From a virus (Duplodnaviria; Caudoviricetes), in IMG/VR virus record IMGVR_UViG_3300029288_005873, positions 32,001 through 96,000 of that record: DNA of 64,000 nt; one strand, written 5' to 3'. The position numbers and the translations under genes are program-made. Under the pieces are notes generated by a model, which searched no databases, was not told where the DNA came from, and saw nothing but the letters and a program-made list of their open reading frames with translations. Within the stretch, counting starts at the first letter, position 1. Each line of letters starts with the position of its first letter. Of this stretch, positions 36,136-50,568 are shown piece after piece.

Positions 36136-36207
36136 TACTCCCAAGGGGAATCGAACCCCTGTTTCCTGAGTGAAAGTCAGGTTGCCTGGCCGCTGGCAGA
36201 TGGGAGC
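36136..36207 (-). tRNA. tRNA-Glu(UUC)
   Basis: CCTGA-CTTTCAC-TCAGG. Confidence 0.9.
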
Positions 36208-36212
36208 AGAAG

Positions 36213-36329
36213 CCGCGCTTTGTTTATCCATGCGCGCGACGCACATGGTATGGGCGATTGGCGAGGATCGCCCTTCTGTCCGCCTTTCCAAAACCCTGGC
36301 GACAAGGGTCTCGCGCCTCTGGGGCGCGG
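36213..36329 (-). ncRNA. Candidate GC-rich multi-hairpin ncRNA
   Basis: Intergenic, four hairpins, directly 5' of tRNA-Glu. Confidence 0.45.
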
Positions 36330-36759
36330 AAGAGTCAATTAACCGAATCGTCCTTTATAACCTGTGCCTTTTCTTGGAATGCTTTCCTGATCGCAGCTTT
36401 CATAACATCCATGGCATCCTGGATACGCATTCTTCCAGAGGCTACCGATTCCCTCAGCTCCTTGGCAAGCTCGCCGAGGTTTGCGTCAAAAACAAATGTC
36501 TTACCCACGGCTTCTCCTTAATCCGAAAAGTTGTAAACATCTATAGCAAGACTTATATCATATATGATTTAAGTCTTGCTCTTTTCATCATTATTAAGAT
36601 TAAAAAGAGTCTCTATACCATTAAGAGCTTCGTTAACCAGGTTTGTACCTTCGCTATTATTAGATTTTATATATTCTTCTTTTAATCGCAACAATGTACG
36701 TTTACATTTTTCCAACGTATTAGTTTTATTGATCTTTTTATTTGCCATAGTCCCTCGCT

Positions 36760-37341
36760 TTAGGTTAACCTAAGAATACCAACAGGAGTTACCTGAAGGC
36801 TCTGCTTTATTCCATCCTTAAGAAATCTTTGGGCGGTTACGGCAATTTGTGCAGCTGTAAGGGCAAACATCGGAAGCTGTTCGCCGTCCTCACATGTTGC
36901 CTGTCCTTCTTTGCCCTCATCATCGAGAACAAAATATTCGTCCCAAACAACCCGACCAAATATTCCATCAGCAGATAGAGCTCCATGGAGGCATGGAATC
37001 TTGTGCTTCCGCACATAGTCTTGTATTGTCCTTCGAGCTTTTGCGTTATCTGTACAGTCTAGGACAAGTGCGGCACCGCCTAGGATGGCATCGGCGTTGT
37101 CTTCTGTAAGTCTATACGGAGTAGCATCAACCTTAGTCCCGAAAAGACCATTTAGAGCTTGCTGAATTGCCTTAGCCTTGTTTTGGCGCAAACCCATTTT
37201 GCTGTGGAATTGCGACTGGACGTTTTTAGTTTCAATATAATCATGGTCAACCACACGCGTAGAGTTTTTCCAGTTGCGCGCCAAAAGCGCCACATGTGAA
37301 CCGAGGGCGCCAACGCCAACAATAACTACCTTGCCTTCCAT
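36760..37341 (-). CDS. ThiF/E1-like adenylyltransferase
   Basis: GVGALG, DHD.IE..N..Q, K, DCTDN..AR; candidate catalytic Cys150 (ATCEDG). Confidence 0.9.
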   Translation of the reverse strand: MEGKVVIVGVGALGSHVALLARNWKNSTRVVDHDYIETKNVQSQFHSKMGLRQNKAKAIQQALNGLFGTKVDATPYRLTEDNADAILGGAALVLDCTDNAKARRTIQDYVRKHKIPCLHGALSADGIFGRVVWDEYFVLDDEGKEGQATCEDGEQLPMFALTAAQIAVTAQRFLKDGIKQSLQVTPVGILRLT

Positions 37342-37350
37342 GATTATTTA

Positions 37351-37617
37351 TTACTTTCTGCCAAAAGGCGTCTTTGGTCGCAGCATAATTCGTCCAGGAA
37401 GCTCAGCTGTTGCCGCGAACCTATCAACTACGAAGTCAGTGAAATCCACATTTTCATTAGCTGGAATTCCAGCCACATAGCCTGTGCGTACGGCCTCGAT
37501 TGCCATCTGCTTGATTACTTCGTCGGACGAATCATACGACACTGGGTCGTTTAGGTCCCCGTTATACCCACCAAATGTAATGTTCAGTCTAGCCATTCTA
37601 GCATTGATCTCTTCCAT
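37351..37617 (-). CDS. Ubiquitin-like (beta-grasp) protein, C-terminus KTPFG-RK
   Basis: 88 aa, beta-beta-alpha-beta-beta pattern, Gly near the C-terminus, lies between JAB and E1 genes. Confidence 0.7.
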   Translation of the reverse strand: MEEINARMARLNITFGGYNGDLNDPVSYDSSDEVIKQMAIEAVRTGYVAGIPANENVDFTDFVVDRFAATAELPGRIMLRPKTPFGRK

Positions 37618-37618
37618 G

Positions 37619-37993
37619 TTATTCCTCCTTTTGCGACAGCCTACGCAGATCGTGGATGTCGTCCGATTTTAAGAACGGTATTCTCCGGTAATCATGTTTT
37701 CCTGGACCGCTCCAAATAAATGTTGCCACTTCACTCATAGTCACAATAGGCCACACAAGCCTTCGTCCAAGTGCGGCTTCGCACGCCGCAAACGTCGTAA
37801 TATCAGTCCCAGATGGGCTTGCGGATCCATTCCAAGGATGCGTATGAGCAACTCCACCCAATCGTTCGCGATTTTCCCACAGGATATCCCACAGATTTCT
37901 AGAATCTGGTATCCAGCCTCCAGATCGACCTGGGGGGAGGTGCCAATGTATGACATTTCCATCCAAATCAAAAACTAAAGCTGTCTCAATCAT
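37619..37993 (-). CDS. JAB/MPN+ metallopeptidase
   Basis: N-terminal Glu (MIETAL) and HTHP......SGTD JAMM motif. Confidence 0.88.
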   Translation of the reverse strand: MIETALVFDLDGNVIHWHLPPGRSGGWIPDSRNLWDILWENRERLGGVAHTHPWNGSASPSGTDITTFAACEAALGRRLVWPIVTMSEVATFIWSGPGKHDYRRIPFLKSDDIHDLRRLSQKEE

Positions 37994-37994
37994 A

Positions 37995-38969
37995 TTAATC
38001 ATCCCAATCGTCATCGTCACGATCGCCATCTGCATGTCTGTAGACTACCAATTTACCTGTATTCATGGCCTCTCCCACAACAGCGGGAAGGCTTTCTAGC
38101 GTGAATCGTGCATCGCCTTTTACACCAGTGTGGTGATCGGTTAAACATATTCCTGAGTCGATTACACGTAATGTATCTTTGTCTACCACGCATTCAAGAC
38201 GACGGTTTCGGAATCTATACTGTACGACCATTTCCTTCTTATTACGCGATGGTCTAGCATCAAGTAGTTCGGCACCGCTTAGCCTTAGGGCAGCTTTTGC
38301 TGCCGCACCAAAATCCCTTTGTGCCAATGCGCGCCGTCCGGCTCCAGTTCCAGCATCTTTTAACGCTTGTCTGAACCGTTCTGCCTCAGCCCGTTTTTTC
38401 TCTTCTTCGAGTCTAATGCGTTCCATCTCTCGTTCGCGTTCCTCAGCAAGAATCCTCTGACGCGACACCCAACGAAAAGCTAAATCCAGAGCTGGGGTAA
38501 CTCCAATTACGTGGTCGACAGATCCTCTGCGATCCTGGTAAGCCATCTGTACAGCTGCCTCAGGACCTTGTGGAAACTCCTGCCTTACATATACCAGTCC
38601 TCCGCGTGTATTGGCGGCGACAGCTCTAGCAAATCTGTCAAGACCTGGCTCGACAACGAACACTGGAATGGTCTGGTCAACTAGTTTTTCTGGATCGGGA
38701 TCAATCCTTACATCATCAGGAATTAGCCTATCACCAACAACATATCCCTTGATAAGTTTATGACCATTCTCAAAATCTGGATTTGGATCAGCAGGACCCT
38801 CTAACTCTGCTTTACGACCTCCAGAGATTTTGAAAATGTACCATCCATGTTCATTGGGCAACTTTCCTTCAATCGTTAAAGTGCGCTCCCTATCATGAAT
38901 TTGTCTACCTCCGGTCCATGGAAGTGTTCTTTTGTCGCCTTCTAATGCCAATAAATCCTGCCAACCCAT
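37995..38969 (-). CDS. Multidomain protein with coiled coil and C-terminal divergent E2/UBC-like domain
   Basis: VIDSGICL (Cys275) followed by FTLESLPAVV resembles the UBC G.ICL...TL.S.L motif; gene context. Confidence 0.55.
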   Translation of the reverse strand: MGWQDLLALEGDKRTLPWTGGRQIHDRERTLTIEGKLPNEHGWYIFKISGGRKAELEGPADPNPDFENGHKLIKGYVVGDRLIPDDVRIDPDPEKLVDQTIPVFVVEPGLDRFARAVAANTRGGLVYVRQEFPQGPEAAVQMAYQDRRGSVDHVIGVTPALDLAFRWVSRQRILAEEREREMERIRLEEEKKRAEAERFRQALKDAGTGAGRRALAQRDFGAAAKAALRLSGAELLDARPSRNKKEMVVQYRFRNRRLECVVDKDTLRVIDSGICLTDHHTGVKGDARFTLESLPAVVGEAMNTGKLVVYRHADGDRDDDDWDD

Positions 38970-38987
38970 ATATTCTCCTAAACAGAT

Positions 38988-39254
38988 TCAACCTGGTAGA
39001 ACTAATTCATCATCTGACGCCACAACACATACAAGATCATATTTCGAAAGCTCACACTTGCTGCCATCGTCAAACACAACTTGGCGTACAGAATCTTTGT
39101 CACATATACTTGTAATTGTCTTGCTTTCTATGACTCTACCAAGCCATCCATATTGCGAATTACCAACAACATCTGTTTCCCAAGCAATCTTGGATCCAAT
39201 ATGTAATAGCAATACTTGTATCATTTTCCCTTGTTTTGGTGAACAATACCTCAT
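38988..39254 (-). CDS. Hypothetical protein
   Basis: AGGAG RBS before MRYCSPK. Confidence 0.5.
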   Translation of the reverse strand: MRYCSPKQGKMIQVLLLHIGSKIAWETDVVGNSQYGWLGRVIESKTITSICDKDSVRQVVFDDGSKCELSKYDLVCVVASDDELVLPG

Positions 39255-39278
39255 TTTTTCTCCTATGGATTTACACCC

Positions 39279-39345
39279 GAGTGCGACTCCGAATCGAACG
39301 AAGATAGTGGGTTCCCCCACTGTTTTGCCATTAAACTATCGCACA
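39279..39345 (-). ncRNA. Anticodon-less tRNA mimic (GGAA tetraloop)
   Basis: GTGCGA/TCGCAC acceptor, canonical D arm, AGTGGG-GGAA-CCCACT, CTTCG-TTCGATT-CGGAG. Confidence 0.75.
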
Positions 39346-39392
39346 CGTCCCGTTTTACTTGGTGGACAACGCCCAAATCATTGTTTCCTATT

Positions 39393-39680
39393 TCAACGTT
39401 CTATTACGAAAACCTTTCTACGACTTCGCCGTCCACTTCGAATAGAAACATTTGACTTAGGAACACCAAACCACTTTGCAACAAGCTTAATTGCCTCCTT
39501 GTTAGCTTTTCCATCCACGGCTGGAGATGAAACAAATACCTTCAGGCTACCATCATCCTGTTGTACAATCCCACTCCTTGAAGCTTTTGGAGAGACAAGG
39601 ACGCTAACCAGCTGTCCCACTTTTTTAACACAAGCGACAACCTTTTCTCCTTGTTTGATCACAAAACATGAATCAAACAT
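39393..39680 (-). CDS. DUF167/YggU family protein
   Basis: V.PKASRS...LKV.V.SPAVDGKAN..I...A...GVPKS.V.I.SG..SR.K. Confidence 0.88.
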   Translation of the reverse strand: MFDSCFVIKQGEKVVACVKKVGQLVSVLVSPKASRSGIVQQDDGSLKVFVSSPAVDGKANKEAIKLVAKWFGVPKSNVSIRSGRRSRRKVFVIER

Positions 39681-39939
39681 CGCCGCATCCCTTTCTCTTC
39701 TGTTTCTTACAAGCATTAATGAAGGCTGCCCTACCCTCGCCCATTGTATTTAGTAGGGCAGCCATTTTACCACCCCGCTTTACTGCTTCCTCCTTTGTTA
39801 TTTCCTTAATGTTGTTTCCTTTACACCAAGGACATACATCGACCCTGCTTGGATGTGTCCAATGAAGTTTTAGACAATCCTCACATAGGTATGGAGTTGT
39901 ACAAGGTTTATATCCCTCATCTCCCGTGCTCATGCCCAC
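39673..39939 (-). CDS. Small Zn-ribbon hypothetical protein
   Basis: CEDC...CPWC; overlaps the stop of the vWA gene. Confidence 0.5.
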   Translation of the reverse strand: MGMSTGDEGYKPCTTPYLCEDCLKLHWTHPSRVDVCPWCKGNNIKEITKEEAVKRGGKMAALLNTMGEGRAAFINACKKQKRKGCGDV

Positions 39940-41807
39940 ACCGGCTTCTTCAGCAGATCAGTCTTGAGAACCTCCTCAACCAGGGTAACCTTTGTAGCCT
40001 TACGTACTTGAGCCACAATTGGCGTTGTAGCAATCAGATTACGAATCACACGAGTTACAGCATATGGGTCGGCAAAAATGCCTTCCTCAATCGCAAAACA
40101 GGGGATTCCAAGTCTTACTGCGGCATCCCTAACAATCGAGCCACTGCCATACTGCCCGCTTACAACCCTCAGAAGACCGAAAGCCACTGGGTTAATTCCC
40201 GATTCCTGGACAGCCACCAGTAACTGAGCTAATCCAGTATCGAGCTCATCGCCCACAAACAACATAATAGCATCCTCACCATCCTTCGGTCTACGATGAG
40301 CAAGAGCGCGAACACCTTGCGCATAACTTGTTCCACCACCAGCAAAATGTCCCCTAAAAGCCGCCTCAATACCCTTGGCAGATGGATGTTTGATCTGTAC
40401 CTCACCACCCATCGTATTGAAGACGCTAACATGTAGCCTTTCAAGTGGAAATCCAACAAGGAGCTTGGACAAGTACATCTTCGCCTGTTCTATCGCACCC
40501 TGCATAGATCCGGACTTATCCACAATGGCATAAATCCTCAGGTCCTTGGTCACCTCTTCCATAGCTTTCTTGGTAGCTGTGTCGGCAGCATCCTGTAGAG
40601 CTTCCCTTGTCTCCTGAGACTTAACGCGTCGCGCAACATTCGCGGCACGCTGATTCTCAGCAGTCTCAGTTGCCCTCTTCCAGCGGTCGGATACATCCTT
40701 CACCTTAAGAAGCCCAAGCTCTTCTAAAGTTGGTGTAAGGATAATCATATCCGTATTGGAAACGGACCCCGCTTCAATAGCTGCTGCCATAACAGCTCTG
40801 GTAAGACCTACTTCGGACGGAAGCAAACCAACAATACGCTTATAGTTTGGCTTTGTCTCCACAATGCGTTCACAGATTTGCCTTTCGGTCAGACCCTTCC
40901 AACTTTCCGCTTTCTTGACCTCAGCGCCGATGGCAATCTCCCTCCGACCATCTTCGGCCTGCTTCTGCTTCCAGCGCAGGATTTCGAAGAACTTCGGCGA
41001 AGAAGGCTTGTATCCCACCCTTCGAGCAAGCTCCATTACGGATGTACGAAAACCTGCCTTGACAAGACCCTCAAGCATCTTAGGGTTGTCTTCACGATAA
41101 CGCAGATACTTCTCAACTACTTTGGTATACCTACCCTTAGCTGGAGTGCGGGCTGATTTGCCAAAACCAAGTTCGCGATTAATCGCAGCCACGCCTGGAA
41201 GAGCAAGGATATCGCCAATCCTAAGAAGCAACTTCGGATCAATGTCATCCTTGGCTCGAATGAGACACATGGCCTCACCGACGTCCCTGTAGTCCTCATC
41301 ATGGAAAAGGACCTTGCCATCTTCCATAATAGGTTCTCCGCATCTGCCCTGAACAAGCATGAAAGCCGCAAGCACAACCTTCATATCGCGATGTTCCTTA
41401 GAAAATGCCCAGGATGCCCACCTTGCGGCAAACTCATTATCCAGTTTATAAACATCAGCAACCTGCCTGTACATCCAAGTCGCAACCTCCGGAAAAAGAC
41501 CAGGCTTTCTGTACTCAGCAACCTGCCTAGCGCCATCCATAATAGCATTGCCGTTTAGGATGCCAAGGCGAATCCTTCTTTGCTTGTTGCCGACCTTCTC
41601 AAGCCTGTAAACGACCTTCTGACCGCCTTCCTCCTTCCAAGTTACGGGTTCCCAACGCACGCCGGTCTTGGCGTTCCTGTCCACAAATAGAGCACCTGGT
41701 CTACCATGATATAGATGATCAAGATAACCTGTAAGAGTCTGAATAATTTTTTCAGCTGGACCGAGAGCTTCAATACGTTGCCTATCTGCTTGCTGATTAA
41801 CTACCAT
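39930..41807 (-). CDS. vWA-domain protein with helical N-terminal region, divergent Ro60/TROVE-like
   Basis: MIDAS DKSGS, GGT, VGDE; DNEFAARWASWA, VMELARRVGYKP and ALQDAA..A resemble TROVE segments. Confidence 0.65.
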   Translation of the reverse strand: MVVNQQADRQRIEALGPAEKIIQTLTGYLDHLYHGRPGALFVDRNAKTGVRWEPVTWKEEGGQKVVYRLEKVGNKQRRIRLGILNGNAIMDGARQVAEYRKPGLFPEVATWMYRQVADVYKLDNEFAARWASWAFSKEHRDMKVVLAAFMLVQGRCGEPIMEDGKVLFHDEDYRDVGEAMCLIRAKDDIDPKLLLRIGDILALPGVAAINRELGFGKSARTPAKGRYTKVVEKYLRYREDNPKMLEGLVKAGFRTSVMELARRVGYKPSSPKFFEILRWKQKQAEDGRREIAIGAEVKKAESWKGLTERQICERIVETKPNYKRIVGLLPSEVGLTRAVMAAAIEAGSVSNTDMIILTPTLEELGLLKVKDVSDRWKRATETAENQRAANVARRVKSQETREALQDAADTATKKAMEEVTKDLRIYAIVDKSGSMQGAIEQAKMYLSKLLVGFPLERLHVSVFNTMGGEVQIKHPSAKGIEAAFRGHFAGGGTSYAQGVRALAHRRPKDGEDAIMLFVGDELDTGLAQLLVAVQESGINPVAFGLLRVVSGQYGSGSIVRDAAVRLGIPCFAIEEGIFADPYAVTRVIRNLIATTPIVAQVRKATKVTLVEEVLKTDLLKKPVWA

Positions 41808-41854
41808 TGTCGTTCTCCTTCATGTTTTTGAGCCATAGGCTCGAGTTTATTGGA

Positions 41855-42211
41855 TTAACCCCAACTACAATGCTCTTCTTCTATACTCTCCATACCGTCG
41901 TAGTCATGGATATACCAACCCTCACAATCTTCAAATGGAATATCCACTACCTTAAGATAGGAGAAATTGCTATTTGCTTCATTACCAAGCTGTTCCACTA
42001 CTTGTACCAAACGAAGATCGCAACGAAATTTCTTATCATTTTCAGAATAAATATAATAATTACACCCAAAACCAGCCTTTTTACGCCTAATAAAATCTTT
42101 GTTTTCGATATCACCCTCGTTCCCAACCGTCATTCCCAACGCTATACATGCTTCGACCGCTTTGTCCGAAAGACCAAACCCACCAAAACACTTATTAATC
42201 ACAACTTTCAT
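41855..42211 (-). CDS. Conserved phage protein
   Basis: MKVVINKCFGGFGLS...R.D..LV.VVE.LG...YDG.E. Confidence 0.7.
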   Translation of the reverse strand: MKVVINKCFGGFGLSDKAVEACIALGMTVGNEGDIENKDFIRRKKAGFGCNYYIYSENDKKFRCDLRLVQVVEQLGNEANSNFSYLKVVDIPFEDCEGWYIHDYDGMESIEEEHCSWG

Positions 42212-42519
42212 TGTCTTTCTCCTAACAGATTTTTCCACATCGCCAGCAAACACCACTACCACTTGGATAATATACAGCACTACATTTTGGGCATTCGCTG
42301 GGCTCACCCATTGGCACATATGGTCCATGACCCTGCCGAAGATTGAAAATAGCTGAAGCTTCCTCTGGCGTATGTGCGTCGAACTCGTAAGATGGAAATT
42401 CTGATTTCGAAATCAGACCGTGCGTTATTAGAATTAAAGAATTCTCTTCAGTAGTAAGAAGAAAACCGTCATCCTGTTTATACACTAGATATCTTGTTAA
42501 CACGTTTCTCCTTACAGAG

Positions 42520-42672
42520 CGCCCCAGGAAGGACTCGAACCTTCAATTGCGTGTGAGCTTGTACCGGATGGCTCCTAAATCGTAGAACTCCTTAGGAGCC
42601 GAGAAGAGAAGCTAATTGCTTTTGTATCGCAGCTCCAAATGCTGTTGCCTTTTCCAATTTGGCTACTGACCC
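42520..42672 (-). ncRNA. Expanded tRNA-like RNA, copy A
   Basis: D arm, loop ATTTGGA, ~80-nt insert, GAAGG-TTCGAGT-CCTTC T arm. Confidence 0.75.
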
Positions 42673-42682
42673 GAACTGATAA

Positions 42683-42710
42683 AACATATCCTCCTGAAGA
42701 AAATTGTCAA
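42683..42710 (-). promoter_or_regulatory. Sigma70-like promoter for RNA A
   Basis: TTGACA-N16-TATGTT about 10 nt upstream of the RNA. Confidence 0.5.
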
Positions 42711-43777
42711 GCCTCATTTTCGGGAAACAGTCCAAGCTTCACGTTCTGGAGGTTTTTCTGCTTAGCGTCGATCTCACGCTCCAATTTCCCTAAATTTCTT
42801 CAACTTCATTACTTAGCCTCACGAAGTTTATTTCCATGGTTTCCTTGTAGTTCATATCCGATTTCTTTTGCAGCAAATCGCAACGGATCCCAATGGTGAT
42901 GATTGTCACAATTGTCCCAAAGCGCTTGTATTCTTGCTGCTATAACTTCATTTGGCTCATCTATAAGTTCTACCGTAATGCGATATTTTCGCACTTCAAC
43001 TATGCCATTAAAACATGATGGGCAATCCTGTTTCATGTTTTTAATGGCATACTGATGAGGCTCAGAAAAAGTTTCCATTACAATAGGTTCAAAACGGATT
43101 GCTTTTCTCTTATCTTTACGCATCATATTTCCCTTACTGGTGAAGAAGACTAAGTGCTTGTTTTCGCTCAAGATTAAGAATTTGCCCTCCTTCAAAAAGG
43201 AGTATCCAACGAACTTTTCCCTTGTCCGAAAAACCAATCAAATCAGTACCGCACGCTACCTTCCAAAACCTCTCTCCAATATTCCGTCGTACTATTTTTC
43301 CTATTCCAGGAGTTATACCAATCCAATCTTTTCGACAATGGATTCCTTCACGCTTTGCAATGCGTACTTCCCAAGATTCCAACTTCATATTGTCCTCATA
43401 TCCTAAAAACTAGATTATATCTTGCCAGACTTTATTTGTTTTGATCTCTCCATGGCCATATTGAATATATCAGTTCTATCATCATCTGACAAATTACGTA
43501 GAATCTCGAACACACTATTATCAATGCCATCAAATGTTGGATCAAGTTCCAAATTTGTCCCCTTTAGCCCACTGGAGCGCACAACAATAACATCTCCATC
43601 ATATATATTACAGGCACATAGGTTCATCCACCTAACCATTGGTCCACCATGTGCGTCTTTTTCCTCAAATACGACGCCCATAGTTCCGGGGATAACATCA
43701 GCAGCATATAATCTCTTGGCTGCCACGACAACATCTCCTCTCCTAAGTTTGCTTATATCCATTATTTTCCTTTCTTG

Positions 43778-43852
43778 TCGGGATAGCAAGATTTGAACTT
43801 GCGACCTCTCGGGCCCAGGCCGAGCGCTCTAACCAGGCTGAGCTACATCCCG
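43778..43852 (-). tRNA. tRNA-Pro(UGG), C33
   Basis: CGGGATG/TATCCCG; CTCGG-CCTGGGC-CCGAG. Confidence 0.9.
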
Positions 43853-44832
43853 CCCTTACAAAACTGACTATTCCAATGGACAACCTTCTTCAGCTAGTTG
43901 CCTATCACATTCGTATGAACAACACCACTCTCCATCATAGCATGCAGAACCAACAATACATCCCTTCGCAAATTTTGCCTCAATACCGCAGTTTGCGCAT
44001 CGACCCCCTGGGTCGTCTGTCGGCCATGACGAGCGCTGCATCCATCTCCAGAATGAACGCATCTCGTCCTCCATAACCTCCGCATAACATTCTGCCTCAA
44101 AAGCTTTCTGTTCCTCTGTATATTCATGTTCAAACTGAATGCTGGTATCGGAGATTTCCCTACACATGTTGCCCCCTTTCCGCGAAAACGTCCGCGGATT
44201 TTTTTCGCTGCATCAACGCGCGATCCTTGTGACTGGGCTAGTTATGCTAGCTTTTATGTATGTTTCTCGGAACTGCGATGACGCAGCCCTGCTAACCAGG
44301 CCTTCCACATAAGTTCTATTGTTCTGTCATCCAGTGCGCAAAATGGCACTCCTGTTTGCGCATATAACCAACCGTCCATCCATGCTATAAAATCGCTGTC
44401 GTTTTTCCAATCATCCGTCATTTTTTATCCCAATACGATGCCAGCCACCACTTGGGCTCGCCGCAAAGATTTACACCATGATCTTCACAGATTTTCCTTA
44501 TTTTTAGTATAACTTTATAATCAATTTCCATATCATCAATTTCAACTACACCTTTTCTACCAGTTAATAATACCTTTGCCGCTAAGGCGTATATTGGACG
44601 ACCCATAGAATAATAATTTCCTACCACAAATGGAATTGGATTCCCACTTCTCCATTTCATCCTATAATGATACTGTGTATCTTCATCAATATTATCAGGT
44701 AATTTGTACCCATTAATTTTCATCCACCACTTATCAACATCCTCTCCCCAAGGGAGATTATAACCTTCCTCAAATAACCAACCATAAAACAAAACACCAT
44801 CAGCGGATATTCCCATTACTTTTTCTCCTTTG

Positions 44833-44904
44833 TGGAGCCGTCCCGAGGTGCGCGGGAACTCTAAATTCTTCAGATTTATGTGCTACTGATTACACCACGG
44901 CTCC
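44833..44904 (-). tRNA. tRNA-Phe(GAA), atypical T-loop CGCACCT
   Basis: GGAGCCG/CGGCTCC; TAAAT-CTGAAGA-ATTTA. Confidence 0.7.
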
Positions 44905-44992
44905 TTATTGGTACTATAATTTTACACTATAGTACCACAGATAATAATCTGTAACAATTGCAACTATTCTATTGTCAACGAACATACTACAT

Positions 44993-45063
44993 TGACCCTA
45001 AGGGGAATTGAACCCCTGTTTCATGACTGAGAATCACGCGGCCTACCATTAGCCGATAGGGTC
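44993..45063 (-). tRNA. tRNA-Glu(CUC)
   Basis: GACCCTA/TAGGGTC; anticodon loop TTCTCAG. Confidence 0.9.
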
Positions 45064-45655
45064 TTTTGTTTCGTTTGGACTACTTTTCCAATCTGGCATT
45101 CTAGCTATAGCCGAATCTCTTGTAGGACGAAATGCCCATATCCAACTAGCTGGCCATTCTTCGTCCTCACAAATTATTGGCTTCTCCGAAAAAGCTGTAA
45201 TTACCACAAAAGCTTCTTTTGTGTCCACTAATGCAAAGAACACTTTGTTGATCGCAAGATCAACTATTACAATATTAGCGCGCTTTCCAATACTATGACG
45301 TGGATCGTTTTTATACCACATTTTATTTACCATGCTTTTCTTTGTCACATTCTTGTTCCGCTGCTGCGTGACAAATTGGACACCAGCCGCGAAAACATTT
45401 CACGGCATTCGAGGTGTATGGCCAACCGATACGACTAGCATCTCTCATAAGCTCCTCGCAAAGGTCTATCCTACCTTGCCAATAATCTGCCGATCTACCA
45501 ACTCGCTCACGATTGCGCTTCAAATTTTTGGCTTCCCAAAGCAAATACGCAAAGTGCTTAGTAAGACCTTTTGTATATGGATGGTTAAGCCAATCCACCG
45601 TTTGTTGCTTGTCTCCAAAAAATCTTGCGAAAATGCCCATCCTTTTTCTCCTTTA

Positions 45656-45728
45656 TTCCGGAGCTAGGATTCGAACCTAGATCAGCAACATCCAAGGTGT
45701 TGTGCCCTTGCCATTGGACCACTCCGGA
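45656..45728 (-). tRNA. tRNA-Gln(UUG), C33
   Basis: TCCGGAG/CTCCGGA; CAACA-CCTTGGA-TGTTG. Confidence 0.88.
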
Positions 45729-45730
45729 GT

Positions 45731-45870
45731 GGTGCTGTCTCTCCAGCTGTCACGCCTCATACGTTGAGTTGCGCCTCCCATCAGTGTTCTCCAACACGTG
45801 AGATAACAGATTGCTGGCGTTCACAACCGAATGACCGCCCCAATTTGTTGGGCGTGTACATTTCACTACA
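45731..45870 (-). ncRNA. Candidate structured ncRNA abutting tRNA-Gln
   Basis: Intergenic, several hairpins including two with purine-rich GGAGA loops. Confidence 0.45.
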
Positions 45871-45969
45871 AAAAAGATTATCTACAACAGGTTTAACTAG
45901 TCTAGATATATGTCATTAAAATAATCAACCAAATGTAATAATTTTAACAATCATGTTATCAAAATTCTA

Positions 45970-46347
45970 TTATGTTACCTCGTATTTGGATCCAACACAT
46001 ACTGTCACTGATCGATTTGGGCATTCATGCGAAGGAATAAGGAATTTCCTACCATCGTCGGTGACTATAAATACCAGATCCACTTTTGTCGAATCAAAAA
46101 ATTTAACCGTATTTCCTGTTTTGTTTCCGCCCTTTGTACGCATTTCGACTTGATAACTACTGCCGCTCCTCTTGTATCGAGATGTACGAACTTGTACTTT
46201 CTTGAGAGTGCCGTCGTCTATTACTAAGTCATACTCTTGACTATCAGTAAGTGGTACGCATACAGTACAACCTTGTACAGAAAACCATCCGATAGCAATC
46301 CCGAGACCAACATCTCCCTGCTTTTTGCTATTTCTTTGTTTTAGCAT
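45970..46347 (-). mobile_element. PD-(D/E)XK homing endonuclease
   Basis: QGDVG, P..D..YDLVID, KVQVRT. Confidence 0.8.
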
Positions 46348-46537
46348 AACGTTATTAAATCGCAGCCTGTGCCCACAGATACACCATCAGTGCCGTAAAA
46401 GCAACAATCGCCAAAATACCAATACCGATACGCACATATGTGTACACTGGAGCCCTTAGCTGTGGAACTTCACAACATTCTTGTTCATTCTTCTTCTCAG
46501 CACATTTGCCAGAACATTCACACATTATCGCCACCTT

Positions 46538-47356
46538 TCAGATGTCAAGCCCAATATCATCGGGGGTTTTGATTCCGACAACTTTCTTTATACTCTCCTT
46601 CCACTTAACTTTTGGTGCTAGAACGGGATCTGACATAACTCTATCATAAAGTCTAATAATTGCTGCGTCGCTTTGAGATTCTTCCAAAGCAAGAATCATA
46701 TCACTCGTATGCTGATCCATATAACCACCGGCATTTATTAAACAGCGCTGACTTAGCTTATTAGCCTTCCCAATCCAAATTGCGTCAGTTACATATGGCA
46801 CTACAGTCTTAACTAGCCTAATAACATTATCGTGATTGGTATCCAGCATTGGCTCCATTGATACGCTGGTCTGCCAGCCGTTATCATGCGCCCACATGAG
46901 AGAATATAGTCTTTCAGCAAATGTGGGAGCCTTTGGCTCCCAAAAACGCAACGTACTAGGATCCATTGATCCAATTGTGAAACGAAATAAGATATTTCCC
47001 TTTACCCAAGGCATATCTCCACACAATTGTTTAATAATATACGGACTCGGCTTAGATACTACAAGAACTTTATTTCCAGCCTCCAAGAGCTTCCATAACA
47101 TCTCACGACAGTACTTAAAATTACTGGTCGTAATATCGTGAGATGTTGGAAACATTACTGTTCCTTGTCTCTTTCCAAACCTTTTTGCTATCTCCCTTGG
47201 TCGTTCTATTTCCCAACTCTTTGCTGTTTCCTTGCCAAACCTAATAGCTTGTGCCTTTGCATAACAATAAAGACAACCGTTGGTACAACCATCCATACAA
47301 TTTGCAGAACTAGCAGCCCATTCTCTTGTACCAGTTGGAGTTTTCTTACTACTCAT
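46538..47356 (-). CDS. Radical SAM protein
   Basis: GCTNGCLYCYA; SVSMEP. Confidence 0.85.
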   Translation of the reverse strand: MSSKKTPTGTREWAASSANCMDGCTNGCLYCYAKAQAIRFGKETAKSWEIERPREIAKRFGKRQGTVMFPTSHDITTSNFKYCREMLWKLLEAGNKVLVVSKPSPYIIKQLCGDMPWVKGNILFRFTIGSMDPSTLRFWEPKAPTFAERLYSLMWAHDNGWQTSVSMEPMLDTNHDNVIRLVKTVVPYVTDAIWIGKANKLSQRCLINAGGYMDQHTSDMILALEESQSDAAIIRLYDRVMSDPVLAPKVKWKESIKKVVGIKTPDDIGLDI

Positions 47357-47862
47357 CTATTTATCTTCTCTCAGTGAATTAGCTAAATTAGTCGCATATG
47401 TAAACAGTGGACCTTTACAAATTTGACGAGGATAAGGATACGTATTAATATTGCCAATTAGGTTTTCGATAACTCCAATTGGCAAATGATTTTGTATAAG
47501 ATCATATAGAAACAAAACCAACGCATCGTTACACCAAGATGTGTTTTCTTTGCACGACTTCTCTAACTCCCCAATTTTCTTCTTTTTTGCCATATTAGTC
47601 TCTTTTTCTCAACCGTTCTGCCAGGTCTTTGGCATAGTTGGCTAGCCAGCCTTTTTGTGAAACGGCTTGGCTGCTTTTCAACTTCGCCCATCATATCCTC
47701 AACCATGCCTATGGTCATATGGTCGCGCATAAGCTGATATAGGAAAGACACAAGCGGATCATCGGACCCAACATTACCACTTCGCTCACGCAACGCATCC
47801 ATACGATATGCTGTCTCCGTCAAAGAAACATGGCATTCCCTAAGCTCGTTATCTTGCGCCAT
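47357..47862 (-). CDS. Two paralogous small proteins; the upstream one is frameshifted in an A-run near 47652-47656
   Basis: Shared D.LV.FLY.L...H..IG motif; removing one A restores FTKGWLANYAKDLAERL, matching KGPLFTYATNLANSL. Confidence 0.6.
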
Positions 47863-47874
47863 TCTATTCCCCTT

Positions 47875-47908
47875 AAAAACAAAAACGCCCAAGCTTTTAA
47901 CTTGGGCG
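47875..47908 (-). terminator. Intrinsic terminator of an attenuator
   Basis: CGCCCAAG-TTAAAAG-CTTGGGCG followed by TTTTTGTTTTT. Confidence 0.8.
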
Positions 47909-47938
47909 CCGGTTTTGCTGTTTATTTTCCGCTTTGGT

Positions 47939-48103
47939 TTATGCGCCCAAGTCTCCTATTAAGTTACTACCAAAGCGGACGTTTCCATTAAAAGAATAAG
48001 AACGCTCGGGCAGAATACTGGATGGCTGATTCCACACACACGTATCCAGTAGCCCATTTTGGGCTTTCTGGAAAGCTACTTTGTGTGTTAATGAACGCAT
48101 CAT
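47939..48103 (-). CDS. 54-aa putative leader peptide
   Basis: GGAG RBS; MMRSLTHKVAFQKAQ...GSNLIGDLGA*; last codons form the antiterminator strand. Confidence 0.55.
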   Translation of the reverse strand: MMRSLTHKVAFQKAQNGLLDTCVWNQPSSILPERSYSFNGNVRFGSNLIGDLGA

Positions 48104-48175
48104 TTTTTATATCTCCAAAAACAGCACCAGAGGGTTTAGTTGCTTTAATGGCATACTAGACCTAGTCTGGCGCGG

Positions 48176-48299
48176 CGGGGAGTTTCCGATTCGAACGGAA
48201 AGCTTGTGGGCTTCACAGGAGTTGGTCGTTTACGACCGAGAAATGAAGCAGGTTATTCTGGTTTGGCTCCAGTTGGCACCCCAGGTGCCAAAACTCCCC
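48176..48299 (-). ncRNA. Expanded tRNA-like RNA, copy D
   Basis: GGGGAGT/ACTCCCC acceptor, TTCCG-TTCGAAT-CGGAA T arm, GCTTCA...CTCGGTCG-TAAA-CGACC...TGAAGC insert. Confidence 0.75.
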
Positions 48300-48336
48300 A
48301 AAATTAGGAATGCGCGAGCGAGGAAGTCTTTTGTGT

Positions 48337-48408
48337 TAGCGGATGAGGGGATTGAACCCTCAACCTTCTGATTATAGGTCAGACGCTCTACCATTGAGCT
48401 GATTCGCT
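48337..48408 (-). tRNA. tRNA-Ile(UAU), C33
   Basis: TCTGA-CCTATAA-TCAGA; A73. Confidence 0.85.
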
Positions 48409-48437
48409 TGTGGACTTCTTTCCTTTGCGCATACCCG

Positions 48438-48574
48438 TCTGCCCGCTGGGATTCGAACCCAGATGATTTTCGCGTGTAGGTTCAGTATATTAGCTCCAAA
48501 GGAGCCGAGTAAAGGAACTAGATGCTTTTTGAAAGCTCCAAATGCTTTTGCCGCTCCAATTCGGCCACGGGCAG
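48438..48574 (-). ncRNA. Expanded tRNA-like RNA, copy B
   Basis: CTGCCCG/CGGGCAG acceptor, AAAGC-ATTTGGA-GCTTT, insert, CTGGG-TTCGAAT-CCCAG. Confidence 0.8.
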
Positions 48575-48645
48575 ATAAAAAACAAACTAGCCTAATCTAT
48601 CAATTTTACAGCATAATAATTAAACTAGTTAAGGAGGAACTTAGT

Positions 48646-49161
48646 ATGCTAATTTGTCGTAACTGTAACCAACCTTTTCCCTACAGCATTATCGTAAATG
48701 GGAAAGTGCGAAACCTACAACACAGAAAATTCTGTCTCAAATGCTCTACTTTCGGGAAGCATAATACCTGCGCAGATATAAAACAAAAACTCTCTGATCA
48801 GAAAATTTGCGCTAAGTATCACAATCTTTTTAGCAAAGACGATTTCTACAAACGGGCAAACGGTAGTCCTATTTCATATTGTAGAGAATGCGCCCGAAAA
48901 TGGTTCCTTGATTGGCAACATTCCATCAAAAAACAGTGCGTTGATTACAAAGGAGGCTGCTGTATCTTATGTGGATACAACAAATACTTCGGCTCGCTGG
49001 AATTTCACCACTTGGATAGGAGTCAAAAAGATTTCACCATATCAAGTCACAGAAGTCTTTCTTTCGACCAACTCAAAGAAGAACTAGATAAATGTATCCT
49101 TCTTTGTGCCAACTGTCATCGTGAGGTACATGGTGGAATTACTGAATTCCCAGCTGATTAG
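48646..49161 (+). mobile_element. HNH homing endonuclease (opposite strand)
   Basis: AAGGAGG RBS; YKGG.C..CGY...LEFHH.D..K...ELDKC.LLCANCHRE.H. Confidence 0.9.
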
Positions 49162-49263
49162 TATTCCGTTTATGCTTACAAATTTCTACAGAACCAAACT
49201 ACTATTTTCACAAAACTACAGACTTTACATATTACAATTCGGCTACAATTTAATCTTCTTCCG

Positions 49264-49400
49264 TGCTCCCGGATGGACTCGAACCATCATTTGCTTGTTC
49301 GCTTGTTCCGGGTGACTCCTAAAAGTCGAGAGGTCAAGCTGGGTTGCTTTTTGTGATCAGATTTAATGTCTGTTGGCTTTTCCAGTTTGCCCACGGGAGC
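49264..49400 (-). ncRNA. Expanded tRNA-like RNA, copy C
   Basis: GCTCCCG/CGGGAGC acceptor, CAGA-CATTAAA-TCTG, insert, GATGG-TTCGAGT-CCATC. Confidence 0.8.
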
Positions 49401-49420
49401 AAGTTCTTCCTCTCAGAAGA

Positions 49421-49487
49421 ACAATATTATCCAAAATCCAACATGTCGACTTTTTATGTCATTATCTAGACAACATGTTGGATTTTG
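49421..49487 (-). promoter_or_regulatory. Promoter overlapped by a 15-bp inverted repeat
   Basis: TCGACA-N17-TATTGT; CAAAATCCAACATGT (49432-49446) and ACATGTTGGATTTTG (49473-49487). Confidence 0.5.
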
Positions 49488-49665
49488 TAACATTTTTCCT
49501 ATAACGCTATCTTACTCTACCGAACCAAACTTCTCCTTGAGCTTCTTGTACCCAAGCTTAACGAAATACACCACAACTGGACCTCCAACAAGACCGATTC
49601 CAAGACCAACCAAAAATGTCGTCACTTTTTTCTCCTCCACATTGAAATGGCGGTTACCGCCGCAG

Positions 49666-50568
49666 TTACTCAACAGCTCCAGCGTTTACAAGTGTTATTC
49701 TGGAAACATGAGGGGGCACGCATGCCTTGTGTCTACTTGACCTCTCAAGCTTTCTAAGAGCCATGATGACGGCTGAGTCTACAGAATCATACCCAAGCGA
49801 CTCTGGCGGAACATCATTGAGAACACATCCATTCTTCTCATTTTCCCTACTTGCCCATTCTATAGATCCCATAGATTTACCTGGAAGGGTATATGTTAGG
49901 CGAGTTCCGGTAAGATTGAGAAGCTCCGATTCGTCAGTATGATTTTCTCCTCCCCATAGATCTGGAGTTGGTGATGCATCAATAACTTCCTGTGGAACAC
50001 CGAGATTTGCGGCAAGCTCCCATATTTCACCTTTGAATAAACCTTCAACCCAATTACTGTCTACTTCACCATCTCCGCCCTTCTGATAAAAACGTATGAG
50101 TTCGTCTTCGTCTCTATTGCCCGTTCCTTCTCGTATACCTCCTCCAAATGCTCTATTCACAAAACGCCCCACCGGAGCGCGTAAACAACTACGCAATCCT
50201 CCAAATATTGTTCTATTACAGGGCTTTTCTACATCAGGAAATTGAATCCCAAGCCTTACAAATTCAGACGACACAGCTCTAACTATTTCCCTATAGACTC
50301 CAGATAGGTCAAGTTCAACAAGTCTAAAACCAAACCTGTCTGAAACAAGCTTTGCTAATCTAGAAGACTCTTTAGAAGAATCTATTGAACTATAGACTCC
50401 AATCACATTTTCTTTACCAAATGCTAGACAAGCTAGTGCCGCAACGACAGCGCTATCTACTCCTCCAGAAATATCAACTTCAGCTTTTGAGGTTTTAGCT
50501 TCAGAAGCCTGTTCAAGCATGGCATTTACAAGAATGCCCTTAAGAAGGTCAAAATCCCTTACAGTCAT
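49666..50568 (-). CDS. nadE: NH3-dependent NAD+ synthetase
   Basis: SGGVDSAV, GTGNRDE, F..KGGDG, L.K.E, PTPDLW...TDE.E. Confidence 0.88.
   Translation of the reverse strand: MTVRDFDLLKGILVNAMLEQASEAKTSKAEVDISGGVDSAVVAALACLAFGKENVIGVYSSIDSSKESSRLAKLVSDRFGFRLVELDLSGVYREIVRAVSSEFVRLGIQFPDVEKPCNRTIFGGLRSCLRAPVGRFVNRAFGGGIREGTGNRDEDELIRFYQKGGDGEVDSNWVEGLFKGEIWELAANLGVPQEVIDASPTPDLWGGENHTDESELLNLTGTRLTYTLPGKSMGSIEWASRENEKNGCVLNDVPPESLGYDSVDSAVIMALRKLERSSRHKACVPPHVSRITLVNAGAVE

What the first reader, a model, noticed from the sequence alone, without database searches (positions are those of the whole stretch)
36760..49400. Candidate new system: Ro60/TROVE-like RNP, tRNA-mimic RNAs and ubiquitin-like conjugation in one phage locus
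Seen: in transcription order on one strand are expanded tRNA-like RNAs C, B and D, an attenuator, RNA A with its own promoter, a helical+vWA protein, YggU, an anticodon-less tRNA mimic, then E2-like, JAB, Ubl and E1 genes. Known: bacterial Ro60 orthologues (Rsr) are encoded next to tRNA-mimicking Y RNAs (YrlA) that tether effector proteins; bacterial E1/E2/JAB/Ubl sets (Bil, Bub, CBASS Cap2/Cap3) act in phage conflict. Inference: an RNA-scaffolded or RNA-gated Ubl ligation pathway, in which the TROVE-vWA RNP is the target or an E3-like adaptor, possibly responding to tRNA damage or countering host defence. I know of no described link between Ro/Y RNA and ubiquitination, but unrelated ORFs interrupt the region, so linkage is not proven.
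Basis: partly seen in the sequence, partly recalled or inferred. Interest (0 to 1): 0.93.

Follow-up and report, generated by a model that had tools for sequence, protein, structure and literature searches.

The report
Ro60-like RNP joined to ubiquitin-like module
This huge phage carries a widely conserved gene set, not found in any paper I could search, that joins a Ro60-like RNA-binding protein and tRNA-shaped small RNAs to a small ubiquitin-like protein with its activating and trimming enzymes, which suggests an unexplored link between RNA surveillance and protein tagging.

Summary
On the minus strand lie four 124-156 nt tRNA-shaped RNAs (C, B, D, A), a 625-aa helical+vWA protein, YggU, a tRNA mimic with a GGAA tetraloop, a 324-aa cysteine protein, a JAB peptidase, an 88-aa protein ending RPKTPFG-RK, and a 193-aa ThiF/E1.

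The order vWA, p324, JAB, Ubl, ThiF is kept in every one of 70 huge-phage loci with enough downstream DNA. It also occurs in bacterial chromosomes (Cystobacter, Myxococcus, Verrucomicrobiota, Leptonemataceae). YggU and the other ORFs are insertions.

The same RNA family lies within 1.5 kb of the module in 44 of 53 non-identical loci, including loci without ordinary tRNAs.

The vWA protein resembles Ro60 only by fold; Pfam TROVE does not match. In Myxococcus the RNA upstream of its homologue matches Rfam YrlA below threshold. The phage RNAs are circular permutations of such RNAs.

The "E2-like" call is not supported. p324 has tandem S1/OB-like barrels and one invariant cysteine.

The mechanism is inferred: an RNA-scaffolded Ubl conjugation, with sulfur transfer as the main rival. 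This scan has noted the system in at least 32 other genomes. No searchable paper describes it.

The parts
49264..49400 (-). RNA C: tRNA-scaffold RNA, 137 nt. Acceptor, 3-bp D stem, 4-bp stem with loop CAUUAAA, giant variable arm, T arm.
   Evidence: CM R1 123 bits.
48438..48574 (-). RNA B: same family, 137 nt, anticodon-like loop AUUUGGA.
   Evidence: CM R1 108 bits.
48337..48408 (-). Ordinary tRNA-Ile(UAU) lying 29 nt after B and 37 nt before D. It shows the RNAs sit in a tRNA-type processing array.
48176..48299 (-). RNA D: divergent member, 124 nt, with a 7-bp D-type stem and loop AGCCAAA.
   Evidence: CM R1 48 bits.
47884..47910 (-). Terminator-like hairpin (12 bp plus T run) between the RNA C/B/D array and the downstream genes.
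   Evidence: consensus match only.
42683..42710 (-). Sigma-70-like promoter match (TTGACA-16-TATGTT) a few bases upstream of RNA A.
   Evidence: consensus match only.
42520..42675 (-). RNA A: same family, about 153 nt, 713 nt upstream of the vWA gene, loop AUUUGGA.
   Evidence: CM R1 108 bits.
39930..41807 (-). Ro60-like protein, 625 aa. N-terminal beta domain, helical repeat domain and C-terminal vWA domain with an invariant MIDAS motif (D430, S432, S434, T493, D520).
39393..39716 (-). YggU/DUF167 protein. An insertion shared only with the closest relative (L002); not part of the conserved module.
39280..39344 (-). tRNA mimic with acceptor, D and T arms and a 6-bp stem closed by a GGAA tetraloop instead of an anticodon loop.
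   Evidence: L002 has a homologue with a 6-nt loop at the same place.
38988..39254 (-). Small ORF (88 aa) with no homologue in the other loci; probably an insertion.
37995..38969 (-). p324, a new family. Tandem S1/OB-like beta barrels (residues 12-130), a long coiled coil (159-207) and a C-terminal alpha/beta domain. Cys275, in the motif D-x-G-x-C-L, is the only invariant cysteine.
37619..38035 (-). JAB/MPN+ metallopeptidase with E17, H64, H66, S75 and D78 invariant.
37351..37617 (-). Ubiquitin-like protein, 88 aa. Its C-terminus is LRPKTPFG followed by RK.
36760..37341 (-). Minimal E1-like ThiF adenylation domain, 193 aa. Carries GxGxxG, D32, the D95-C-x-D-N motif, R103 and conserved Cys150.

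Best explanation
The locus is one copy of a conserved six-part system. Its parts are a Ro60-like ring protein (helical domain plus vWA), its own Y-RNA-like partners, a cysteine protein with S1/OB-like RNA-binding barrels (p324), a JAB peptidase, a small ubiquitin-like protein and a minimal E1.

Shown:
- The five genes keep their order in huge phages and in bacterial chromosomes.
- The RNA family flanks them.
- The Ubl has an invariant ...RPKTPFG end followed by variable tails or whole fused domains.
- The JAB and E1 catalytic motifs are intact.
- The phage RNAs are circular permutations of the YrlA-order RNAs found beside cellular and other homologues. The giant variable arm therefore corresponds to the Y RNA stem, here closed by a loop. 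The open acceptor end lets the RNAs be cut out of tRNA arrays.

Inferred:
1. JAB trims the Ubl to expose Gly86.
2. ThiF adenylates that glycine.
3. The Ubl passes as a thioester to Cys150 of ThiF and/or Cys275 of p324.
4. The RNA binds the Ro60-like protein through its variable arm and p324 through its tRNA-like part, by analogy with Ro60-Y RNA-PNPase.
5. Ubl conjugation is thereby directed to a protein held by the particle, or to the particle itself.

In phages the likely role is protection of the tRNA supply or translation against host attack.
For: Synteny:
- vWA, p324, JAB, Ubl and ThiF lie on the same strand in the same order in all phage loci with enough downstream DNA. The five genes are found in 59-64 of 70 loci. 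Every locus lacking p324, JAB and Ubl is truncated just after the vWA gene or early in p324.
- The same module is present in Cystobacter fuscus, Myxococcus dinghuensis, a Myxococcaceae chromosome, a Leptonemataceae chromosome and Verrucomicrobiota contigs. In Cystobacter it sits among ordinary chromosomal genes.

Ro60 likeness:
- The top 11 Foldseek PDB hits are all Ro60/TROVE (E 9e-8 to 3e-5, 540-575 aligned columns).
- The top BFVD hits include named phage Ro-like and TROVE proteins.
- The vWA domain scores Z 14.9.

RNA:
- Helix P_a covaries: 5 of 5 pairs show double changes and 90% of cells are paired.
- 44 of 53 loci have a member within 1.5 kb of the module, and 26 within 300 nt.
- All four members in the 442-kb genome lie within 8 kb of the vWA gene.
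- Five other phage genomes each have one within about 0.1-0.4 kb of a module end.
- RNA-first searches found no complete genome that has the RNA but lacks the protein.
- The M. dinghuensis RNA upstream of the homologue matches Rfam YrlA full length at 44.1 bits, E 1e-8.
- Permuted L100 units match the phage RNA profile end to end (54 and 40 bits). Native units match in two swapped halves.

Ubl:
- The invariant R80, P81, K82, F85 and G86 are followed by 0 to about 20 variable residues, or by unrelated 70-120-aa domains.
- One such fused domain is 54% identical to the free-standing window ORF 43415-43762.

Enzymes: JAMM and E1 motifs are invariant.

p324: the barrels resemble S1/CSD/TRAM folds, and Cys275 is invariant in phages and bacteria.
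Against: - Pfam TROVE matches none of 23 family members, nor the module protein in five bacterial genomes.
- A profile of the family finds no Ro60 among PDB sequences.
- The Foldseek TM-scores are only 0.20-0.28 and the full-length model has pTM 0.49.
- No E2/UBC fold or Prok-E2 family is detectable in p324. The S1/OB matches are weak, Z 4-5.
- The beta-grasp fold of the Ubl rests only on TM of about 0.55 to PB1 and DUF348 models.
- The window RNAs do not match Rfam YrlA, and neither do the L100 units.
- In one phage genome, seven family RNAs lie 230 kb from the module.
- No expression, binding or conjugation data could be obtained.
Confidence: 0.55

Rival explanations
1. Sulfur-carrier pathway. 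The small protein would be a ThiS/MoaD/TtuB-like carrier that ThiF converts to a thiocarboxylate after JAB trimming. The sulfur would thiolate phage tRNAs or the tRNA-like RNAs held by the Ro60-like/OB proteins. Cys275 of p324 would act as a persulfide relay.
For: - The module sits in tRNA arrays.
- The best NCBIfam hits of the E1 are ThiF and MoeB.
- No E2 or E3 is detectable.
- From my own knowledge, JAB-trimmed sulfur carriers exist (CysO/Mec+, QbsE/QbsD), and TtuB and Urm1 serve tRNA thiolation. The reviews listed were not read.
Against: - The C-terminus is an invariant Phe-Gly, not Gly-Gly.
- The conserved module has no PP-loop thiolase, rhodanese or cysteine desulfurase.
- The nearby NAD-synthase-like PP-loop gene is not conserved.
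- The Ubl is fused to diverse cargo domains, like ubiquitin precursors.
Confidence: 0.2
2. Bait model, a specific version of the main reading. The RNAs carry different anticodon-like loops and would act as decoys. They would capture host tRNA-targeting defence enzymes, which the particle then tags with the Ubl or sequesters.
For: - 70 of 74 family RNAs have a perfect hairpin in the anticodon position, and 41 have a 7-nt loop.
- Many different triplets occur, with position 37-38 mostly AA or GA. Position 33 is often not U.
- Phage tRNAs are proposed to evade anticodon nucleases through loop changes (PMC10264068, title and abstract only).
- A structural Ro60 look-alike of phage Bas63, encoded next to its tRNA genes, counters the ppl defence (PMC11482910).
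Against: - The module also lies in bacterial chromosomes with only one or two YrlA-like RNAs, which argues for a general cellular role.
- No host target is known.
Confidence: 0.15
3. The expanded RNAs would be simply unusual decoding tRNAs (class II scaffold with a very long variable arm). They would lie near the module only because both sit in the phage tRNA region.
For: - Acceptor and D arms resemble class II tRNA-Leu (my reading of the sequences).
- A and B have U33 and a plausible UUG anticodon loop.
- The phage encodes a CCA-adding enzyme homologue.
- One genome has seven copies far from the module.
Against: - Loci with no ordinary tRNA at all still have these RNAs next to the module: L031, L038, L039, L046 and L053.
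- Bacterial homologues have tRNA-like RNAs directly upstream although no tRNA array is present.
- Many loops lack U33 or have 4-9 nt.
- The variable arm carries conserved motifs shared with YrlA-order RNAs.
Confidence: 0.07
4. Chance clustering of unrelated genes in a hypervariable region.
For: Unrelated ORFs and homing-type genes interrupt the region in this window.
Against: The order is conserved across phages at 41-78% identity and bacteria at 38-41% identity.
Confidence: 0.02

Closest known systems
Ro60 (Rsr)-Y RNA particles of bacteria and phages: Deinococcus Rsr-Yrn1-PNPase, Salmonella and M. smegmatis YrlA/YrlB, Thermus phage phiLo Ro60-Yrl1/2
   Same: - A helical domain plus a C-terminal vWA domain with MIDAS.
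- Small tRNA-like RNAs encoded beside the gene.
- Known Y RNAs tether an S1/KH-domain effector (PNPase). Here the neighbour p324 has S1/OB-like barrels.
- Sources: PMC4201824, PMC12135203.
   Different: - No Pfam TROVE match, and an extra N-terminal beta domain.
- The phage RNAs have the tRNA order (D arm before T arm, open acceptor) instead of the YrlA order.
- The constant partners are a Ubl, an E1, a JAB peptidase and a cysteine protein, which no described Ro60 locus has.
Prokaryotic ubiquitin-like conjugation operons (Bil, Bub, CBASS Cap2/Cap3, Caldiarchaeum-type E1/E2/RING/JAB)
   Same: An E1 adenylation domain, an intact JAB peptidase, and a small protein with a conserved C-terminal glycine made with removable tails.
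   Different: - No recognisable E2 or E3.
- The E1 is only 193 aa.
- The Ubl ends Phe-Gly.
- The operon is fused to an RNA-binding particle and to RNA genes.
E2-less Ubl systems with dual roles: archaeal SAMP/UbaA/HvJAMM1, Thermus TtuB/TtuC, eukaryotic Urm1/Uba4
   Same: A minimal set of Ubl, E1-like enzyme and JAMM peptidase with a link to tRNA biology.
   Different: - Those carriers end Gly-Gly and work with PP-loop thiolases.
- None is linked to a Ro60-like protein or to dedicated RNAs.
Phage Bas63 gp130, a structural Ro60 look-alike encoded upstream of tRNA genes that counters the ppl defence (PMC11482910)
   Same: A phage Ro60-like gene placed beside a tRNA array, with the suggestion that some of the 'tRNAs' are Y RNAs.
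   Different: - It is not a detectable sequence relative: tblastn of the phage collection found only Rctr197k.
- No Ubl module is reported there.

Membership tests
Ro60/Rsr (TROVE + vWA) | Match to the Pfam TROVE domain PF05731 | tested here: not met
   No TROVE hit at E<=5 in any of 23 family members. The TROVE model does not hit the module protein in five bacterial genomes. A profile of the family finds no Ro60 chain in PDB sequences.
Ro60/Rsr (TROVE + vWA) | Fold: alpha-helical repeat ring followed by a vWA domain with MIDAS | tested here: inconclusive
   The top 11 Foldseek PDB hits are Ro60/TROVE (E 9e-8 to 3e-5, 540-575 columns), but TM is only 0.20-0.28 and model pTM is 0.49. BFVD gives Ro-like phage proteins. 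The vWA domain is clear (Z 14.9) and the MIDAS residues are invariant. Ring closure could not be judged.
Ro60/Rsr (TROVE + vWA) | Y RNA genes encoded next to the protein gene | tested here: met
   RNA A lies 713 nt upstream. Family RNAs lie within 1.5 kb of the module in 44 of 53 loci. A YrlA-like RNA lies directly upstream of the M. dinghuensis homologue.
Ro60/Rsr (TROVE + vWA) | Binds Y RNA and misfolded RNA | not testable with these tools
   Needs RIP-seq or EMSA.
YrlA (Rfam RF02553) | Reaches the Rfam gathering score (69 bits) | tested here: not met
   No YrlA match at E<=1 in window 36000-50000. The Myxococcus relative reaches 44.1 bits. The L100 units give no match.
YrlA (Rfam RF02553) | Topology: 5'/3' ends form the Ro-binding stem, the T arm precedes the D arm, and the acceptor is closed by a loop | tested here: not met
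   The window RNAs have tRNA order with an open acceptor. They are circular permutations of YrlA-order units. The topology of YrlA is taken from PMC4201824.
YrlA (Rfam RF02553) | tRNA-like D and T arms | tested here: met
   A canonical GGUUCGA T loop and a GG-containing D loop in A, B and C. Helices are 98% paired with covariation.
tRNA (RF00005) | Reaches the Rfam gathering score (29 bits), with a 7-nt anticodon loop carrying U33 | tested here: not met
   RNA A scores 24.9 bits. B, C and D are not reported. C and D lack U33. The tetraloop mimic has no anticodon loop.
Ubl conjugation system (E1/E2/JAB/Ubl) | E1 adenylation domain with nucleotide-binding and Mg-binding motifs | tested here: met
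   Pfam ThiF E 4e-23. PADLOC E1-E2 models match the E1 part at E 7e-13. GxGxxG, the D-C-x-D-N motif, R103 and C150 are conserved.
Ubl conjugation system (E1/E2/JAB/Ubl) | JAB/MPN+ peptidase with an intact JAMM motif | tested here: met
   E17, H64, H66, S75 and D78 are at least 95% conserved in 58 sequences. The Pfam Prok-JAB match itself is below its cut-off (22.5 against 25 bits).
Ubl conjugation system (E1/E2/JAB/Ubl) | Small beta-grasp protein with a C-terminal glycine exposed by processing | tested here: inconclusive
   Gly86 is invariant and followed by variable tails or fused domains. The fold evidence is only TM 0.52-0.56 to PB1 and DUF348 models.
Ubl conjugation system (E1/E2/JAB/Ubl) | E2 with a UBC fold and catalytic cysteine | tested here: inconclusive
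   No UQ_con or Prok-E2 Pfam hit in 32 p324 members. No UBC chain appears in Foldseek or VIA-align. The best hint is an RWD-type chain at Z 4.0. One invariant cysteine, C275, exists.
Sulfur-carrier systems (ThiS/MoaD/TtuB type) | Carrier ends Gly-Gly | tested here: not met
   Invariant Phe-Gly in 57 phage and 20 bacterial sequences.
Sulfur-carrier systems (ThiS/MoaD/TtuB type) | A conserved partner that uses the thiocarboxylate (PP-loop thiolase, ThiG, MoaE) or a rhodanese domain | tested here: not met
   Only five genes are conserved and none is of these kinds.

The most novel reading that the evidence does not exclude
RNA-programmed protein tagging. Each tRNA-shaped RNA, with its own anticodon-like loop, would act as a bait that brings a particular tRNA-binding protein to a Ro60-anchored Ubl-transfer enzyme (p324 Cys275). 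Examples of such proteins are a host anticodon nuclease, a synthetase or a modification enzyme. The choice of target would then be encoded in RNA rather than in an E3 protein.

An even stranger variant is not excluded: the E1-activated glycine could be esterified to the CCA end of the RNA itself.
Probability: 0.12. Interest if true: 0.95.

Novelty: new variant of a known kind. Interest (0 to 1): 0.82.

Why it matters
Ro60 and Y RNAs are conserved from bacteria to humans, yet few effectors tethered by Y RNAs are known, with PNPase the best studied. The role of the Ro60 vWA/MIDAS site is also unknown.

Here a Ro60-like particle is tied to a ubiquitin-like protein, its E1 and its peptidase. The tie holds across hundreds of huge phages and in cultivable Myxococcota. 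That gives a testable link between RNA surveillance and protein tagging. It also gives a second example of what a Y RNA may recruit.

The RNAs show that a Y RNA module can be grafted into a tRNA as its variable arm. It can then be matured by tRNA processing. This means phage 'tRNA arrays' hide non-decoding RNAs.

Cystobacter and Myxococcus strains that carry the module natively make experiments feasible.

Tried and rejected
- **Intron-containing tRNAs.** ARAGORN with introns gives mismatched anticodon stems and unpaired 25-nt variable loops. Rejected.
- **tmRNA.** The genome has a normal tmRNA elsewhere.
- **Known Rfam families.** Only sub-threshold tRNA matches for the window RNAs.
- **Close phage relatives in GenBank.** No nucleotide match. 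Only Rctr197k by protein.
- **CobT or MoxR-type vWA readings.** No such Pfam or NCBIfam hits.
- **Defence-system models (PADLOC).** Only the E1 part of Cap2-like models matches ThiF.
- **p324 as an E2.**
  - Not found by Pfam, Foldseek, VIA-align or the ESM Atlas.
  - A profile search of 1.8 billion representatives found 554 clusters at E<=0.001; most of the 150 listed are full-length or near-full-length ~300-aa proteins, and none is joined to a larger architecture.
Not seen in this subfamily.
- **RNA-first searches with two DNA patterns.** They mostly hit ordinary tRNA-Val anticodon loops (CUUACAAGC) and had to be filtered.
- **Rfam YrlA on the Verrucomicrobial units.** No match.
- **In-silico permutation of the Myxococcus RNA.** No full-length match to the phage profile.
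- **RtcB in the genome.** None.
- **Literature gap.** Burroughs and Aravind 2016 (NAR 44:8525), which treats Rot/TROVE systems, is not held and could not be checked.

Full report
**Setting.** The window is bases 32001-96000 of a single 441,904-bp virus contig, a huge phage. Genes in the finding run on the minus strand. The genome has 24 ARAGORN tRNAs in two regions and a tmRNA. It has a CCA-adding enzyme homologue and no RtcB. Megablast found no nucleotide match in the held phage collection. The only GenBank relative by protein is Virus Rctr197k.

**What is there.**
- Pfam confirms ThiF (36760-37341, E 4e-23), a weak Prok-JAB (37619-38035) and DUF167/YggU (39393-39716). It gives weak vWA hits for the 625-aa protein (39930-41807).
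- The 88-aa ORF (37351-37617) and the 324-aa ORF (37995-38969) have no family match.
- JAB, the Ubl and ThiF are separated by 1 and 9 nt.
- Four RNAs share a 7-bp acceptor stem, a D arm and a canonical T arm, with about 60-85 extra nucleotides between them. They are C 49264-49400, B 48438-48574, D 48176-48299 and A 42520-42675.
- B, tRNA-Ile and D are spaced 29 and 37 nt apart, like members of one tRNA precursor.
- Between YggU and a small ORF lies a 65-nt tRNA mimic (39280-39344). Its anticodon loop is replaced by a GGAA tetraloop.
- A promoter-like site precedes RNA A, and a strong terminator-like hairpin lies at 47910-47884.

**Are the parts linked?**
- The vWA protein has about 2000 relatives among the 8000 candidates scored.
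- A scan of IMG/VR gave 69 loci, mostly from contigs of 130-620 kb.
- Window proteins were searched against six-frame ORFs of these loci and of Rctr197k. Only five have homologues throughout: vWA in 70 loci, p324 in 64, JAB in 63, Ubl in 63 and ThiF in 59.
- Their order and strand are the same in every locus. All loci lacking p324, JAB and Ubl are cut just after the vWA gene or early in p324.
- YggU, the 88-aa ORF and everything between RNA D and RNA A are not conserved. In most loci p324 follows the vWA gene directly.
- The same five genes occur at 38-41% identity in complete bacterial chromosomes and other genome contigs. These include Cystobacter fuscus, a Myxococcaceae strain, a Leptonemataceae MAG, Myxococcus dinghuensis, Haliangiales, Kofleriaceae and Verrucomicrobiota.
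- In Cystobacter the neighbours are phytochrome kinases, a GH31 glycosidase and ATP-grasp genes. That is not a prophage context.

**The RNA family.**
- A profile of A, B and C found full-length relatives in other loci.
- A covariance model built from 13 of them found more than 70 RNAs of 105-210 nt.
- All share the motif ACUCG followed by a hairpin, often capped by GNRA or UUCG. All share the motif YACA(A/C)GC just before the T arm.
- The helix that closes the variable arm covaries. Five of five pairs have changes on both sides and 90% of cells are paired, against 41-55% when the partner is slid.
- 70 of 74 RNAs also have a perfect 4-7-bp hairpin in the anticodon position. 41 have a 7-nt loop.
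- The loops differ widely and look like anticodon loops of many identities, but position 33 is often not U.

**Position of the RNAs.**
- A motif scan found a member in 47 of 53 non-identical complete-module loci. It lay within 1.5 kb of a module end in 44, within 300 nt in 26, and never inside the module.
- Loci with no ordinary tRNA still have these RNAs beside the module: L031, L038, L039, L046 and L053.
- In the window's own genome the four RNAs are the only members. All lie within 8 kb of the vWA gene, and none is near the second tRNA region.
- Whole-genome scans of five other phages each found a member about 0.1-0.4 kb from a module end. One genome also has seven copies 230 kb away, and another has two about 20 kb away.
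- Searching by RNA motif alone mostly hit tRNA-Val anticodon loops. It did yield five new contigs with bona fide members. Three encode the vWA protein, and the two that do not are only 14% and 27% complete.

**Relation to Y RNAs.**
- In M. dinghuensis the RNA directly upstream of the vWA homologue matches Rfam YrlA over the whole model at 44.1 bits. That is E 1e-8 in a 501-nt search, below the 69-bit cut-off. It carries the same CCUACACGC and ACUCGG motifs.
- On a Verrucomicrobial contig, units between the vWA and p324 genes have the YrlA order. That order is terminal stem, YACAAGC, T arm, closed acceptor hairpin, D arm, anticodon-like hairpin, ACUCG, terminal stem.
- I cut these units in the acceptor loop and joined their ends. 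The result is a single end-to-end match to the phage RNA profile (54 and 40 bits). The native order matches in two swapped halves.
- So the giant variable arm of the phage RNAs is the Y RNA stem closed by a loop. The phage form has tRNA-like free ends.
- YrlA topology and its tRNA mimicry are described in PMC4201824.

**The proteins.**
- The AlphaFold model of the vWA protein has pLDDT 78.7 and pTM 0.49. It shows a small beta domain, a long helical domain and a vWA domain.
- The 11 best Foldseek PDB hits are all Ro60/TROVE, led by the Thermus phage phiLo protein. Alignments span 540-575 columns but TM is low.
- BFVD gives named phage Ro-like proteins.
- Sequence methods do not see TROVE. I therefore call the protein Ro60-like, not a TROVE family member.
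- The p324 model has pLDDT 89. It has two beta barrels that weakly resemble S1, cold-shock and TRAM domains (Z 4-5). It also has a 50-residue coiled coil and a C-terminal alpha/beta domain.
- No E2 is detectable in p324. Cys275, in the motif D-x-G-x-C-L, is the only cysteine kept in both phages and bacteria. The family has 554 clusters at 50% identity, and no listed member is joined to a larger architecture.
- The Ubl ends in the invariant motif RPK(T/V)PFG. In eight phage loci it stops exactly at Gly. Elsewhere it carries 1 to about 20 extra residues or an unrelated 70-120-aa domain.
- One such fused domain is 54% identical to the free-standing ORF 43415-43762 of this window.
- The JAMM motif and the E1 adenylation motifs are invariant.

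**Mechanism.** The steps from JAB trimming to E1 adenylation of Gly86 follow from the established chemistry of E1 and JAB enzymes and from the C-terminal pattern. Three steps are inference: transfer to Cys275, RNA-mediated tethering of p324 to the Ro60-like protein, and the target. The tethering idea rests on analogy with Ro60-Y RNA-PNPase, where S1/KH domains bind the Y RNA (PMC4201824, PMC12135203). The main rival is a sulfur-carrier role. The Phe-Gly end and the lack of any thiolase in the module make it less likely. A bait role against host tRNA-targeting defences is attractive for phages (PMC10264068, PMC11482910), but it does not explain the chromosomal copies.

**Novelty.** Full-text searches combining Ro60, TROVE or Y RNA with ubiquitin-like, E1, JAB or ThiF found no description. 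The jumbo-phage survey mentions Rot/TROVE only as an RNA-repair scaffold. One relevant paper (NAR 2016, 44:8525) could not be read. Earlier notes of this scan describe the same system in at least 32 other genomes. One such report was later marked 'part of it fell', with no detail given.

Noticed in passing
window 44833-44904 (-): tRNA-Phe(GAA) with a non-canonical T loop (CGCACCU). Rfam tRNA scores it 46 bits in the sensitive search. ARAGORN and the default Rfam run missed it.
   Followed up: partly
window 12138-12208 (-): A tRNA found by Rfam (48.6 bits) directly beside tRNA-His but not reported by ARAGORN.
   Followed up: no
window 43415-43762 (-): The first 62 residues of this free-standing 115-aa ORF are 54% identical to the domain fused behind the Ubl (...RPKTPFG) in protein P0121. 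It may be a cargo or partner of the Ubl.
   Followed up: partly
window 48463-49161 (+): A 232-aa ORF on the opposite strand, wedged between RNA C and RNA B. Homologues occur in 26 related loci but there is no Pfam match. It is possibly a mobile (homing-type) gene.
   Followed up: no
protein P0009 (homologue of window 39930-41807): One relative of the vWA protein is 1043 aa long and carries intein/homing-endonuclease domains (PF14528, PF14890). That marks the host protein as strongly conserved.
   Followed up: no
L071-L092 (genome contigs): The closest relatives (55-63% identity) lie on contigs binned mostly into Myxococcota MAGs, and true Myxococcota chromosomes carry the module at about 40% identity. 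This hints that these huge phages infect Myxococcota.
   Followed up: no
L100 11830-12500: An array between the vWA and p324 genes joins the same Y-type stem to tRNA-like cores in different ways. Some units have YrlA order. One has the stem in place of the acceptor (Rfam tRNA positions 5-66).
   Followed up: partly
G001 (genome of L031) 99210-100636: A cluster of seven family RNAs lies 230 kb from the module, inside the main tRNA array of that phage.
   Followed up: no
window 45970-47356 and 49666-50568 (-): A PD-(D/E)XK nuclease, a radical SAM protein and an NAD-synthase-like PP-loop protein lie among the RNAs. Each has homologues in at most two related loci.
   Followed up: partly
L164, L182, L183: Huge phages without the vWA protein carry other long tRNA-like genes (112-151 nt). 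These lack the ACUCG and YACAAGC motifs, so they are a different kind of insert-bearing tRNA.
   Followed up: no
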